Source of the DNA: Phallusia mammillata
Taxonomy: Eukaryota
Direction: 5' to 3'
Assembly (NCBI GenBank): GCA_965637545.1
Contig: OZ281494.1
Coordinates: 3,410,001 to 3,474,000 of the forward strand
Length of the DNA stretch: 64,000 nucleotides
The number at the start of each line of letters is the position of its first letter. Position 1 is the stretch's first letter. Positions 24,001 to 27,000 of the stretch are shown here, piece by piece. The position numbers were made by a program.

Positions 24001-27000
24001 CACGAAACGGAAATATTCTGCGACGCCCTTGGAAAATAGAAACGACGCACCAGGGCGTCGCAACGCACAGTTTGAGAACCACTGCAATAGACAATTACTT
24101 TCAAATGTTGGTTAAATATAGTTTAAAAGACTTTCATTTTCTAGAATTGGAATTTCTGGATAGATTTGTACTTTCGGAACCAAACAGTGTGGATGCTTTA
24201 GAGGAAATTGAAGAACAACTGGCAGAAGTTGCAATATATTTTGCAACAAAGGACGAATCAGTTTCTGACGTTAGAAATTCTCATCTGCACCAAGTGTTAA
24301 AAATCAACCAAACTGAATATAACAAACACCTCAAACTGGGGTCGTCGCACATAAGCATCTCATTCCAGACACTTAACGTAAAAAAAATTGTAACTTCCGT
24401 TCTCACCTTTCAAACAAATCGAACCGAAACAGTACAGACTCAACCCAACATACAAGGGTCCCTTACTCAAACGCAATACATAGCTGCTGTAAATAGCACT
24501 TATATTGCTGTGGTTGGTTGGGATGCTGATAGACTTTCGAGTTCAAACAGTCGCACGGTAGAAAACAATCAGCTACCCGGAAATGTGAGTTTCGTCATAC
24601 CTCCTATGTCACCAGAAAGGGTCTGTATGCTGATTAGGGAGGAAAAAATCAACAATGCGAACATGAATATCAAGAAACTGGGGCCAATATGTCTCTACTT
24701 CGATAGAGTTGAAAGAAAATACTCGGATCGTGGTTGCGTCACAATCACTGATGACGTAACAGGCAACGTCACTTGCAAGTGCAACCATCTCACTATTTTC
24801 ACCGTTCTTTTGGCGTTGGAATCAGTCACCATACCTGATGGTGTAAAGGTGAAGACATTGTTGTAGAAGTGATGTTTAAAACTATTAACTAGCAGTAGTT
24901 TGCATTGGATCTTTCCTCTGGTAAAGTGCAGTAAAGTGCAACGTGACCGTACGACGTGTTTTATTTACTTTGCTTTTCTCTTTTATTTGATGCCAAGTTT
25001 TTGATACTTGGTATGTCATTATACTTTTTCCTTCCTACACAGAAATGAGGTTAACTTTTGTTGAATGATGTAACATATCACTTAGTCAGATCTATATCAA
25101 AACATTTGTGACCATCTGATATATATACTTGTTTGAATGGGTAGGGCGTGTTTTTAAAAGTTATACTGGTTAACATAAAGCATAATGTGCTGTATAGTTT
25201 AGTACAAATAGTGAAGCAATGTTTTTGCCTCAAACACAGTTCCATAAATGAGTCATACATATACTTAACACATGCCTTCATATTTCCCTATTTTCTATTA
25301 AATTCAATCATCTTTTGTCTAACAAGTGCATATATTTAACGATGAAATTAATATTTTGTTTTCAGTATTTATCCTATGCCACAGAGACGATCTCGGTGTT
25401 CTCTCTTTTTGCGACAATCGCAATCCTCTACAGATACAGGCGAGGTGAAGACAGATTCCCGGTTCAAATCAATCTGTCAGTTTCACTTATGCTTCTCCAT
25501 TCGGTGAACTTGATGCACGATCTTGTAGTGATGCATGAAACATCATGTGTCACTTTTGCTTTAGCCAACCACTGGCTCCTGTTGTGTGTAGGTGAGTTAC
25601 TGTCGAACATAATAGAATACTCACGACTAAAAGTAGAAGTTTTACAATTTAAACACCGATTGTAAACGTTTTAGAGTGTTACAAACGGCGCTTGTTCTGT
25701 TTAAGTGGCGTATATCTACACAGTTACAGCTCCCTTTATCCAATTTGGAATTATCACAGGATTTCAATATTCTCTGTAAAGTCTGTCTTTAATGCTTAAC
25801 GATCTATTGGCAAAGTCAGAAATGAGTACAAACGATATCGTATTAACAGTAAGCTTAATCATAACTTGTTTGTTGCAGGAATGTGGTTCCTTGTTGAAGG
25901 ACTCCGCCTCCTAATGGCAACCTCCTTTCCGTACATTTTTGGAGCTCAAGATCCAGAAACACGTCTTAAGATCTTTATGCTGATTGGTTGGATTGTTCCC
26001 GCTTTTGTAGTTGGCTTATCAGCGGGTGTGGGTTTTTCCCTCGGCGCCTACATGAAGCCCCAACCGTTGCACGAGCAATGTAACGAATTTATGCCGGTTC
26101 CAAAGTACGACAGATGCTGGTTGGCTCCCGGTACCCCGATCTTCTACTCCACGGTCGTCGCTCCTCTTGCTCTCGTCCTCTTTACCAACTTCATAATCAT
26201 CCTGAAGACGACTCATGTGATTCATAACCTGAGGAGGTTGCCCAACAGAGAAGAGGAAGACAATAAAGGAGCTGCAAAATCCGTGCTTGTTTTCTTTGTC
26301 ATGCTTGGAGGGACTTGGATTTTAGCTTTCTTCACAGGTGGGTTTACATCAAGCCTAATAGCCACACGCTTGAGTTAAATTGACTGTTTCGCTTGGTCAA
26401 AGAATATATAGCAACACAGTTACATTCAAAGAACCAAGAGTTCGGAAATAACAGCGAAACGTTAAAATGTTATGAACGCTGCAGCTACACCGTATTATAA
26501 GCGTTATGTGACTGGTGCATACAAAAAAGTGATGTCAAAAAACACGACTGGGGAGACGTTGGTGGAACCAGTTTAGAGGGCCCTAAAACTAACCAACCGA
26601 GTAATGCTAAGAGGGTTGGGCTCGAAACTTACTAATAGCTTAGCGGCCTAATTTTGTGTGTGCTTTCTTTACTGGTTATTTATTGATGCTTTTAAACTCC
26701 ATAATTTCCATGTTTAATATCGTCGCAATAAGTTTTAAGTTTTTAATGCTAGGAGACACATGTGCTTTATCAATAAATCTCTCTTGCAGGAATCGGGAGC
26801 GAGATTTCGAACGAGGTGTTCATGTACATCCATGCCTTGGTGAACGGATTGCAAGGAATCGTCGTCTTCCTGCTGTATTAAATATAAAGTCTACCACAGC
26901 TTTAAACTTGCATCAATAACCCTATAACCATGTTTGCCGTACCATAATGTAGCTGGGATATTCAAAACAGCGCTTGAGAAATTGCATTGTCTGTGTGGCT

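What the first reader, a model, noticed from the sequence alone, without database searches (positions are those of the whole stretch)
26790..26881. Tail-less adhesion GPCRs: A2 and A3 stop immediately after TM7
Seen: A2 ends CTG CTG TAT TAA and A3 ends CTG TTA TAC TAA (44155-44166). The stop is the same, at the position of the Cys codon in LLYC of A1 and B, and the neighbouring differences are synonymous. There is no helix 8 and no tail. Paralogues therefore have no tail (A2, A3), a short tail of about 36 aa (B) or a long repeat tail (A1). Known: a tail-less GPCR precedent is the mammalian type I GnRH receptor, which resists rapid desensitisation. Inference: the stop is old and was tolerated or selected, giving non-desensitising or decoy receptors paired with B.
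Basis: partly seen in the sequence, partly recalled or inferred. Interest (0 to 1): 0.65.

Follow-up and report, generated by a model that had tools for sequence, protein, structure and literature searches.

The report
Tail-less sea-squirt adhesion receptor copies
Two tandem copies of a sea-squirt adhesion receptor gene share an old stop codon right after the seventh membrane helix and stayed under selection afterwards, but each copy in this stretch of DNA now also carries a separate deletion elsewhere.

Summary
A2 (26790-26881) and A3 (44075-44166) end LLY-TAA at the Cys codon of LLYC in A1, B1 and B2. That removes the conserved helix-8 segment and the whole tail.

The window holds a tandem array of five ascidian-type adhesion GPCR genes. 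The nearest database proteins are from Phallusia mammillata.

- **One old event.** The flanks after the stop align between A2 and A3 only.
- **Selection after the stop.** A2 versus A3 gives 20 synonymous and 12 non-synonymous differences (dN/dS 0.16). The TM7 exon alone gives 8:1, while the neighbouring intron differs at 32% of sites. The tail-less lineage has the shortest non-synonymous branch of the three lineages.
- **No hidden tail.** No tail exon or tail remnant lies downstream.
- **Neither copy is shown to be intact.** A3 lacks 1.2 kb (GPS motif to TM3a), next to a 207-nt tract almost identical to A2, so this deletion looks very recent. A2 lacks about 237 bp that hold the predicted start codon and signal peptide.

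"Non-desensitising" or "decoy paired with B" is untested. The pairing itself comes from a segmental duplication.

No transcript or whole-genome data were available.

The parts
26790..26881 (+). A2 last exon: TM7 (29 full codons) ending LLY, then TAA at 26879-26881. This is the finding itself.
   Evidence: Acceptor cag|GA in phase 1. A second in-frame stop lies two codons later.
44075..44166 (+). A3 last exon: TM7 ending LLY, then TAA at 44164-44166.
   Evidence: Compared with A2 it has 8 synonymous and 1 non-synonymous difference and no indel.
25879..26337 (+). A2 exon for TM3b to TM6. Open reading frame, with consensus AG and GT at its splice sites.
   Evidence: Pfam 7tm_2 E=1.3e-15. 67-68% identical to Phallusia P0001.
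25366..25591 (+). A2 exon for TM1 to TM3a. Open, acceptor ttttcag|, donor G|GTGAGT.
   Evidence: tblastn with P0001 residues 241-349 gives E=4e-20. No Pfam hit on its own at E<=0.1.
24145..24848 (+). A2 GAIN/GPS exon with CKCNHLT|IFTVLL. Open.
   Evidence: Pfam GPS E=5.1e-9.
23132..23257 (+). A2 Ser/Thr/Pro-rich exon. Inferred only from the open frame, the donor G|GTATGT and matching phase 1 on both sides.
   Evidence: A 680-bp insertion specific to A2 (23406-24085) lies in the intron after it.
21320..21362 (+). A2 remnant of the predicted first coding exon. Only the last 34 nt and the donor remain. About 237 bp present in A1 and A3, holding the ATG and the hydrophobic core of the signal peptide, are missing.
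   Evidence: The frame upstream of the remnant has no ATG (ORF 21272-21379).
13210..13318 (+). A1 predicted first coding exon: ccaaaaATGG, MGLNLSFNIKSCFVYFWMLIFASG..., donor G|GTAAGC in phase 1. The A3 equivalent is at 40438-40546.
   Evidence: B1 (28529-28604) and B2 (46144-46219) have the same design: a signal-peptide exon with donor G|GTAAGT in phase 1. The exon is inferred; there is no transcript evidence.
42996..43009 (+). A3 deletion junction. Sequence equivalent to A2 24543-25753 is absent. That is the second half of the GAIN exon with the GPS motif, its donor, and the whole TM1-3a exon.
43009..43215 (+). Tract in A3 almost identical to A2 25754-25960 (1 mismatch in 207 nt), starting right at the deletion junction.
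43134..43589 (+). A3 exon for TM3b to TM6. Open, with one 3-nt in-frame deletion relative to A2.
17026..17498 (+). A1 last exon: TM7, helix-8 segment and a 127-aa tail with 11.6 copies of a 24-nt repeat.
35542..35741 (+). B1 last exon: TM7 plus a 36-aa tail. B2 has the same exon at 49660-49859.
26882..27540 (+). 3' flank of A2. It aligns only with the 3' flank of A3 (44167-44830): 23-25% mismatches, with indels.
   Evidence: No tail-coding remnant.

Best explanation
A2 and A3 descend from one ancestral adhesion-GPCR gene of an ascidian-specific family. In that ancestor the last exon came to end right after TM7, at the residue before the conserved Cys. This removed helix 8 and the whole intracellular tail.

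The truncated gene was not dead. After the A2/A3 duplication its transmembrane exons, including the short TM7 exon, went on evolving under purifying selection. So a tail-less receptor was made and used for a long time.

In this assembly both copies have since been damaged at other places:

- A3 lost the GPS motif and TM1-TM3a in a very recent deletion linked to a gene-conversion tract from A2.
- A2 lost the predicted start codon and signal peptide.

Shown: the shared stop, its age, the selection signal, the absence of a downstream tail exon, and the A3 deletion.

Inferred: that the A2 lesion is disabling, which rests on an exon prediction, and what the tail-less protein did. My guess is a receptor that keeps its GAIN domain, tethered agonist and 7TM core. 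It would lack the helix-8 and tail docking sites for G-protein contacts, GRK phosphorylation, arrestin and scaffolds. It would therefore act mainly through its extracellular part, or as a weak or modulating signaller.
For: **The stop is shared.** The same TAA sits at the same codon, with collinear flanks aligning between A2 and A3 only.

**The split is old.** The TM6/TM7 intron differs at 142 of 439 aligned sites with 10 indels. The 3' flank differs at 23-25% of sites.

**Selection acted after the stop.**
- NG86 summed over the two exons gives Sd=20, Nd=12 on S=124.2, N=415.8 sites; dN/dS 0.16; binomial p=2e-6.
- The TM7 exon alone gives 8 synonymous and 1 non-synonymous difference, p=3.8e-5.
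- Polarised with A1, B1 and B2, the A3 branch has 13 synonymous and 4 non-synonymous changes, p=4.6e-6.

**No acceleration.** In three-point branch estimates the tail-less copy has the shortest dN branch in 4 of 4 comparisons.

**Conversion from tailed paralogues is unlikely to fake this.** dS to A1 and B is 0.55-0.91. A2 and A3 share lineage-specific residues in TM7 (S3, A15, L20) that A1 and B lack (alignment).

**No hidden tail.**
- No blastn-short hit at E<=0.1 lies in the two intergenic regions.
- Of 17 weak tblastn hits there (E<=50), the best has E=0.91 and is on the minus strand.
- The 5 plus-strand hits have E=6.8-30.

**Lesions.** A3. A2.
Against: - On the A2 branch the polarised counts are 2 synonymous and 5 non-synonymous. 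This fits neutrality (p=0.50) and only weakly fits dN/dS 0.2 (p=0.097). A2 may have been drifting for some time. Polarisation with outgroups at dS 0.6-0.9 is unreliable, and 8 of 32 changes could not be polarised.
- In the first half of the GAIN exon, dN/dS among A1, A2 and A3 is 0.47-1.04, against 0.20 for B1-B2. Constraint on the extracellular part of the A genes is weak.
- Synonymous divergence in the TM3b-6 exon (12/105) is lower than in the intron. Gene conversion between A2 and A3 has acted there and clouds the dating.
- No intact tail-less copy is shown in the window.
- There is no transcript evidence. No canonical AATAAA lies in the roughly 320 nt that I read by eye after the A2 stop (26882-27200) or the roughly 330 nt after the A3 stop (44167-44500). 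A3 has one ATTAAA and A2 has none at the matching place. No scan was run. B has AATAAA about 85 nt after its stop.
- No tail-less relative exists in the protein libraries searched.
Confidence: 0.55

Rival explanations
1. Tail-less receptors are still functional today. Either the true first exon of A2 lies elsewhere, or my exon-1 prediction is wrong, or the A3 deletion is an assembly or haplotype artefact. At least one copy would then encode a working receptor without helix 8 and tail, either non-desensitising as the reader proposed or signalling-poor.
For: - A2 is open, with consensus AG and GT at its splice sites, in every exon from the Ser/Thr-rich exon to TM7.
- The GPS triad HL|T is kept.
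- By eye, A2 and A3 keep VEG in TM3, GGTW in TM6 and QG in TM7 (alignment). The role of these motifs is recalled, not tested.
- The selection signal is strong.
- The A3 lesion abuts a tract identical to A2. A mis-join between paralogues could also produce this.
Against: - I found no alternative ATG exon with a signal-peptide-like start and a phase-1 donor upstream of A2 or in its 680-bp insertion.
- The A2 branch shows 2 synonymous and 5 non-synonymous changes.
- The A3 junction carries 12-15 nt of filler, as in a real end-joining event.
- Deleting the LPHN2 tail abolished G12/13 activation and arrestin-3 recruitment (PMC12236479, section 6).
Confidence: 0.25
2. The stop was the first pseudogenising hit and A2 and A3 have been dead ever since. 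The apparent constraint would come from gene conversion by functional paralogues or from chance.
For: - Both copies carry extra lesions.
- Gene conversion is active in the array: there is a 207-nt near-identical tract, and the 5' halves of A1, A2 and A3 are 90-97% identical while the 3' halves are 77-82% identical.
- The A2 branch is compatible with neutrality.
Against: - The 20:12 and 8:1 ratios have p=2e-6 and p=3.8e-5 under neutrality.
- The TM7 exon has no indel, while the intron and the flank have 10 and 3 or more.
- dS to every tailed paralogue in the window is 0.55 or more. Residues specific to the A2/A3 lineage are spread through the exon, so a conversion donor would have to be another tail-less copy.
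- The dN branch is the shortest of the three lineages.
Confidence: 0.12
3. The stop is bypassed. A weak donor just before it (CTGCT|GTATTA in A2, CT|GTTATA in A3, both phase 2) or read-through transcription into B would supply a tail from a downstream exon.
For: - GT dinucleotides lie 5-8 nt before the stop in both copies.
- This gene family uses some weak donors, such as GTAATA and GTTGGT.
- The A and B genes lie on the same strand about 1.6 kb apart. The A2 stop is at 26881 and the predicted B1 start is at 28529.
Against: - The two GTs are at different codons and fit the consensus poorly.
- There is no plus-strand tail-like coding sequence between A2 and B1 or between A3 and B2.
- The TM7+tail exon of B starts in phase 1, not phase 2.
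- The last codons LLY are conserved as coding sequence up to the stop.
Confidence: 0.05

Closest known systems
Phallusia mammillata 'Adhesion G-protein coupled receptor D1-like' proteins (UniRef names; P0001 567 aa, P0003 265-aa fragment, P0002 714 aa)
   Same: - Same family: GPS plus 7tm_2.
- P0001 and P0003 are 65-68% identical to the A2 TM3b-6 exon; P0002 is 50-53%.
- P0001 is nearest to A1: 74% identity, and a similar acidic G-E-x-S-N tail.
- P0003 shares NGLQG in TM7 with A2 and A3.
   Different: All three carry the helix-8 segment and a tail of 42-83 aa after LLYC. None ends at LLY. The tree does not resolve which is the orthologue of A2/A3.
Ascidian-specific adhesion GPCR expansion described in Ciona (24 'unclassified' of 30 adhesion GPCRs; 21 of 30 have only a GPS domain; PMC2396169, passages read)
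   Same: A small N-terminus with little besides GAIN/GPS (A genes), lineage-specific duplication, and no clear vertebrate orthologue.
   Different: In the passages I read, that paper does not describe tail-less members. The B genes here also carry a SUEL/rhamnose-binding lectin domain.
Mammalian type I GnRH receptor (class A; naturally tail-less; PMC8741216 and PMC2900216, search-listing abstracts only)
   Same: A germline-encoded GPCR that ends right after TM7 and is kept by selection.
   Different: - It belongs to a different GPCR class.
- Its function is shown by experiment.
- It does not undergo homologous desensitisation.
- Nothing of this kind is known for A2 or A3, and here neither copy is shown to be intact.
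Engineered LPHN2 (ADGRL2) C-terminal truncation (PMC12236479; abstract and section 6 read)
   Same: An adhesion GPCR without its intracellular tail. It is still expressed and reaches the cell surface.
   Different: It is an artificial construct. The text I read does not give the exact cut point relative to helix 8. It lost G12/13 activation and arrestin-3 recruitment.
Natural adhesion-GPCR variants that depart from the canonical layout: Drosophila Cirl isoforms without a 7TM domain, C. elegans LAT-1 N-terminus-only variants, and alternative intracellular tails (review PMC13197933, section VI read)
   Same: Non-canonical products of adhesion-GPCR genes can have functions of their own or modulate the full-length receptor.
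   Different: Those arise by alternative splicing or alternative promoters of one gene. Here the truncation is fixed in the genomic exon of separate paralogues.

Membership tests
Adhesion GPCR (class B2) | GPS motif / GAIN domain directly before TM1 | tested here: met
   Pfam GPS: A2 exon E=5.1e-9, A1 E=1.3e-9, B1 E=2.4e-8. A3 has lost this part.
Adhesion GPCR (class B2) | Autoproteolysis triad H-L|T and the hydrophobic tethered-agonist strand after it | tested here: met
   A2 reads CKCNHLT IFTVLLAL. The consensus it is compared with is recalled. Cleavage itself cannot be tested here.
Adhesion GPCR (class B2) | Secretin-type 7TM domain (7tm_2), all seven helices | tested here: met
   - TM3b-6 exon: 7tm_2 E=1.3e-15, profile positions 93-223 of 250.
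- The TM1-3a and TM7 exons of A2 gave no Pfam hit alone. They align with P0001 residues 241-349 and 495-525.
- Exons were scanned one by one and never joined.
- A3 lacks TM1-TM3a.
Adhesion GPCR (class B2) | Helix 8 and an intracellular C-terminus after TM7 | tested here: not met
   The stop falls at the Cys of LLYC. There is no tail exon downstream.
Adhesion GPCR (class B2) | Signal peptide for export of the large N-terminus | tested here: inconclusive
   A signal-peptide exon is predicted in A1, A3, B1 and B2. In A2 its ATG and hydrophobic core are deleted. The exon is predicted only.
Latrophilin-like (ADGRL) subfamily | N-terminal rhamnose-binding / SUEL lectin domain | tested here: not met
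   SUEL_Lectin is found in the B1 exons only (E=3.8e-7 and 0.067). The A genes have no counterpart. ADGRL3 is the best PDB sequence match of the B1 last exon (E=6.5e-4), but I made no subfamily phylogeny.
Naturally tail-less functional GPCR (type I GnRH-receptor kind) | Stop directly after TM7, fixed in the genome | tested here: met
Naturally tail-less functional GPCR (type I GnRH-receptor kind) | Purifying selection on the truncated gene | tested here: met
   dN/dS 0.16, p=2e-6. A3 branch 13:4 (synonymous:non-synonymous). A2 branch alone is inconclusive at 2:5.
Naturally tail-less functional GPCR (type I GnRH-receptor kind) | An otherwise intact gene | tested here: not met
   A3 has a 1.2-kb deletion. 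In A2 the predicted start and signal peptide are deleted.
Naturally tail-less functional GPCR (type I GnRH-receptor kind) | Signalling without rapid desensitisation | not testable with these tools
   This needs expression and G-protein and arrestin assays.
Pseudogene since the stop arose | dN/dS near 1 and indels in the former coding sequence | tested here: not met
   There is no frameshift or internal stop in any retained exon. dN/dS is 0.16. The TM7 exon has no indel, while its flanks have many.

The most novel reading that the evidence does not exclude
An ascidian lineage of adhesion GPCRs gave up helix 8 and the whole intracellular tail in the germline and stayed under purifying selection on its 7TM core for a long time. 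That would mean a class B2 receptor can do something useful without the elements thought to be needed for G-protein contact, GRK and arrestin control, and scaffold binding. Intact members of this lineage may exist elsewhere in this genome or in related species.
Probability: 0.35. Interest if true: 0.6.

Novelty: new variant of a known kind. Interest (0 to 1): 0.4.

Why it matters
Adhesion GPCRs are described as having three parts: the extracellular region, the 7TM domain and an intracellular C-terminus. Tail variation is known from splicing, not from separate genes (PMC13197933, section VI and passages).

A paralogue lineage that ends at TM7 and was still kept by selection would be a natural experiment. 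It would show what the 7TM core and the extracellular part can do without helix 8 and the tail. It also sits next to tailed sister genes (A1, B1, B2), which gives ready material for chimeras.

As it stands the case is weakened. Neither copy in the window is shown to be intact, and nothing is known about expression.

Tried and rejected
- **Structural breakpoint at the stop.** I first read the end of homology with A1 and B exactly at the stop as a breakpoint. I withdrew this. Local alignment of the A2 and A3 flanks with the A1 and B1 tails gives z from -1.0 to 1.2. The introns between these lineages are just as unalignable, z 0.6-1.8. Nonsense mutation plus decay and deletion cannot be told apart.
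- **Tail remnants, first try.** The peptides were in the wrong frame. Only the nucleotide part of that call counts. The peptide search was redone.
- **Tail-less relatives in protein libraries.** There were 78 hits at E<=1e-3 in the representative library. The word-indexed library gave 2 longer hits and 4 near-length hits. The three hits with about 30 residues after TM6 (P0023, P0034, P0054) turned out to run from the exon into intron-like sequence. They are not tail-less receptors.
- **Tree to date the stop.** A2/A3, B1/B2 and P0003 form an unresolved polytomy.
- **AlphaFold2 of P0001 with a 4-sequence alignment.** Mean pLDDT was 37 and pTM 0.25, too poor to place the TM7/helix-8 boundary. I do not use it as evidence and ran no fold search.
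- **A decayed SUEL-lectin exon in the A genes.** Weak tblastn hits (E=3.7 and 7.3) were not borne out by alignment.
- **An alternative signal-peptide exon for A2.** None was convincing.
- **Not joined.** The spliced gene model was searched and scanned exon by exon. dN/dS totals are sums of per-exon counts.
- **Not available.** There was no eukaryotic genome or transcript collection. Paper supplements were closed.
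Full report
**What the window is.** It has 38% G+C, no N, and genes with introns. On the plus strand lie five tandem paralogues of one adhesion-GPCR family.

- A1: about 13.2-17.5 kb
- A2: about 21.3-26.9 kb
- B1: 28.5-35.7 kb
- A3: 40.4-44.2 kb
- B2: 46.1-49.9 kb

Pfam finds GPS and 7tm_2 in the single exons, and a SUEL/rhamnose-binding lectin domain in two extra exons of B only. The closest database proteins are three Phallusia mammillata entries named 'Adhesion G-protein coupled receptor D1-like'. 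P0001 and P0003 are 65-68% identical to the A2 TM3b-6 exon, and P0002 is 50-53%. The DNA is therefore from an ascidian other than that species. It is not human. Ciona is known to have a large, mostly ascidian-specific set of adhesion GPCRs: 30 in all, 24 of them unclassified, and 21 with only a GPS domain (PMC2396169, passages).

The gene model was handled exon by exon.

**The observation.** It holds in every detail.

- The last exon of A2 is 26790-26881 and that of A3 is 44075-44166.
- Both start in phase 1 behind a good acceptor, encode 29 full codons of TM7 (IGS[E/D]ISNEVFMYIHALVNGLQGIVVFLLY) and stop with TAA. A second in-frame stop follows two codons later.
- A1, B1 and B2 read TGC (Cys) at that codon and continue in the same exon.
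- B continues for 36 residues. A1 continues for 127 residues, including 11.6 copies of a 24-nt repeat.
- The Cys aligns with the Cys of FIFHC in solved ADGRL3 chains.
- The following segment C-[VI]-M-x-x-x-[IV]-R-Q is shared by A1, B and the Phallusia proteins P0001 and P0003. A2 and A3 lack it.

**One old event.** A2 and A3 align without a gap through the exon and for about 650 nt beyond the stop. Neither flank aligns with the tails or 3' regions of A1 or B.

They belong to a tandem segmental duplication of about 17-18 kb that carries one A gene and one B gene each. This explains the 'pairing with B'. The duplication is old where it has not been homogenised:

| Region (A2 vs A3) | Mismatches |
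|---|---|
| TM6/TM7 intron | 142 of 439 aligned sites, 10 indels |
| 3' flank | 23-25% |

Other tracts are 92-97% identical and must have been converted later.

How the tail was lost cannot be told. The end of homology at the stop looks like a breakpoint, but introns between these lineages are just as unalignable. TGC to TAA needs two substitutions.

**Selection after the stop.** Per-exon Nei-Gojobori counts for A2 versus A3 were summed over the TM3b-6 and TM7 exons.

- The sum is 20 synonymous and 12 non-synonymous differences on 124 and 416 sites. dN/dS is 0.16 and p=2e-6 against neutrality.
- The TM7 exon alone has 8 synonymous and 1 non-synonymous difference (p=3.8e-5). Its synonymous divergence (8/19) is as high as that of the intron next to it, and it has no indel.
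- In three-point estimates with A1 and B1, the tail-less copy has the shortest non-synonymous branch in 4 of 4 comparisons.
- Conversion from the tailed paralogues is an unlikely cause. dS to them is 0.55-0.91, and A2 and A3 share their own residues spread through TM7.

When the differences are polarised with A1, B1 and B2, the signal lies mainly on the A3 branch: 13 synonymous and 4 non-synonymous, p=4.6e-6. The A2 branch has 2 and 5, which is compatible with neutrality. Eight changes could not be polarised. These branch counts are small and the outgroups are distant.

**No way round the stop.**

- I found no remnant of tail-coding DNA between A2 and B1 or between A3 and B2 (nucleotide part).
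- I found no plus-strand helix-8 or tail-like coding sequence there. Of 17 weak tblastn hits at E<=50, the best has E=0.91 on the minus strand, and the 5 plus-strand hits have E=6.8-30.
- The GT dinucleotides just before the stop sit at different codons in the two copies and fit a donor poorly.

**Neither copy is shown to be intact.**

- **A3.** It lacks the equivalent of A2 24543-25753. That is the second half of the GAIN exon with the GPS motif and its donor, plus the whole TM1-TM3a exon.
  - The junction has 12-15 nt of filler.
  - It is followed at once by 207 nt with a single mismatch to A2.
  - This looks like one very recent break-repair event that used A2 as template, which fits the strong constraint on the A3 branch.
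  - An assembly mis-join cannot be excluded.
- **A2.** It is open and has consensus AG and GT at its splice sites from a Ser/Thr/Pro-rich exon through GAIN/GPS (CNHLT|IF) to TM7.
  - The exon that best fits a first coding exon in A1 and A3 has a good Kozak context, the signal-peptide-like start MGLNLSFNIKSCFVYFW[M/I]LIFASG, and the donor G|GTAAGC in the phase needed by the next exon.
  - B1 and B2 have the same design.
  - In A2 this exon has lost about 237 bp, including the ATG and the hydrophobic core.
  - I found no substitute.
  - This lesion rests on an exon prediction without transcript support.

**Reading.** The most likely history is as follows. The last exon was truncated in the common ancestor of A2 and A3. 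The truncated gene then served for a long time as a tail-less receptor. Later the two copies in this assembly were damaged independently, A3 very recently (confidence 0.55).

What the protein did is inference. It kept the GAIN domain, the cleavage site and the tethered-agonist strand. By eye it also kept the conserved VEG, GGTW and QG motifs of the 7TM core; their role is recalled, not tested. In LPHN2, deleting the tail left surface expression intact but abolished G12/13 activation and arrestin-3 recruitment (PMC12236479, abstract and section 6). I therefore favour an adhesion-type or modulating role over a GnRH-receptor-like 'signals but does not desensitise' role. The GnRH-receptor precedent itself is real (PMC8741216 and PMC2900216, listing abstracts only).

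**Known or new.** The 2026 consortium review describes an intracellular C-terminus as a standard part of adhesion GPCRs and treats tail variation as a matter of splicing (PMC13197933, section VI and passages). It contains neither 'tailless' nor 'C-terminal tail'. My full-text searches found no paper among those listed that describes a germline tail-less adhesion GPCR. The protein libraries held no tail-less relative, but they hold very few ascidian proteins. I rate it a new variant of a known kind, with moderate interest.

**Left open.**

- Expression, the 3' end of the transcript and the true 5' exon
- Other A2-type copies in this genome
- Whether the two deletions are fixed
- The state of orthologues in related species

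No eukaryotic genome or transcript collection was at hand, and paper supplements were closed. The additional files of the Ciona repertoire paper might list receptor C-terminal lengths.

Noticed in passing
window 32125-35313 (-), flanked by 31982-32109 and 35270-35397: A LINE-type retrotransposon with an uninterrupted 1063-aa ORF sits inside the TM6/TM7 intron of B1. Pfam hits: Exo_endo_phos E=1.7e-7 and RVT_1 E=8.4e-35. It is flanked by a 128-bp direct repeat that is 100% identical. B2 lacks the insertion, so it looks recent.
   Followed up: partly
window 27622-27895 (+): An orphan fragment of an A1-like gene lies about 740 bp after the A2 stop. It holds part of the TM1-3a exon, the short intron and the first 30 nt or so of the next exon. 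It is 84% identical to A1 16182-16462. The A3-B2 unit has no counterpart.
   Followed up: partly
window 12300-15800, 20650-24600, 40000-43000: The array has a mosaic history. The 5' halves of A1, A2 and A3 are 90-97% identical. Their 3' halves are only 77-82% identical between A1 and A2/A3. B1 and B2 are 94-97% identical in their 3' halves but 66-84% identical upstream. This points to repeated gene conversion.
   Followed up: partly
window 15373-15780, 24147-24545, 42601-42996: The first half of the GAIN exon shows weak or no constraint among the A copies. dN/dS is 1.04 for A1-A2, 0.60 for A1-A3 and 0.47 for A2-A3. The same region gives 0.20 for B1-B2. The excess of non-synonymous changes lies on the A1 side (3 synonymous, 15 non-synonymous).
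   Followed up: partly
window 17214-17491 (+): The A1 tail is built from 11.6 copies of a 24-nt unit (GESSNAE-like octapeptide, 86% matches). The Phallusia orthologue P0001 ends with a single similar GGENSN motif, so the repeat expanded in this lineage.
   Followed up: no
window 19145-20686 (-): Three adjacent minus-strand ORFs lie between A1 and A2. By eye they have reverse-transcriptase-like (RYVDDIF) and GIY-YIG-like motifs, which suggests a decayed retroelement. Pfam gave no hit at E<=0.001 for any of the three. The motif reading is from recall.
   Followed up: partly
window 9588-10032 (+), 17574-18098 (+), 56083-56607 (-): Three copies of a repeat of about 450-520 bp, rich in CCGAAC-like units, are 79-94% identical. 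One copy starts about 80 bp after the A1 stop.
   Followed up: no
window 59200-59490 and 60505-60957 (+): Two ORFs each match half of the MADS-box SRF-TF domain (E=6.2e-7 and 2.4e-7). They are likely two exons of a MADS-box transcription factor gene.
   Followed up: no
window 2904-3290 (-): An exon-sized ORF matches glutamate-cysteine ligase (Pfam GCS, E=1.2e-33).
   Followed up: no
window 51776-52606 and 53007-53900; 36323-38617: Further duplicated blocks lie after B2 and after B1. One is a local tandem pair (77% identical). They extend the segmental duplication beyond the receptor genes.
   Followed up: no
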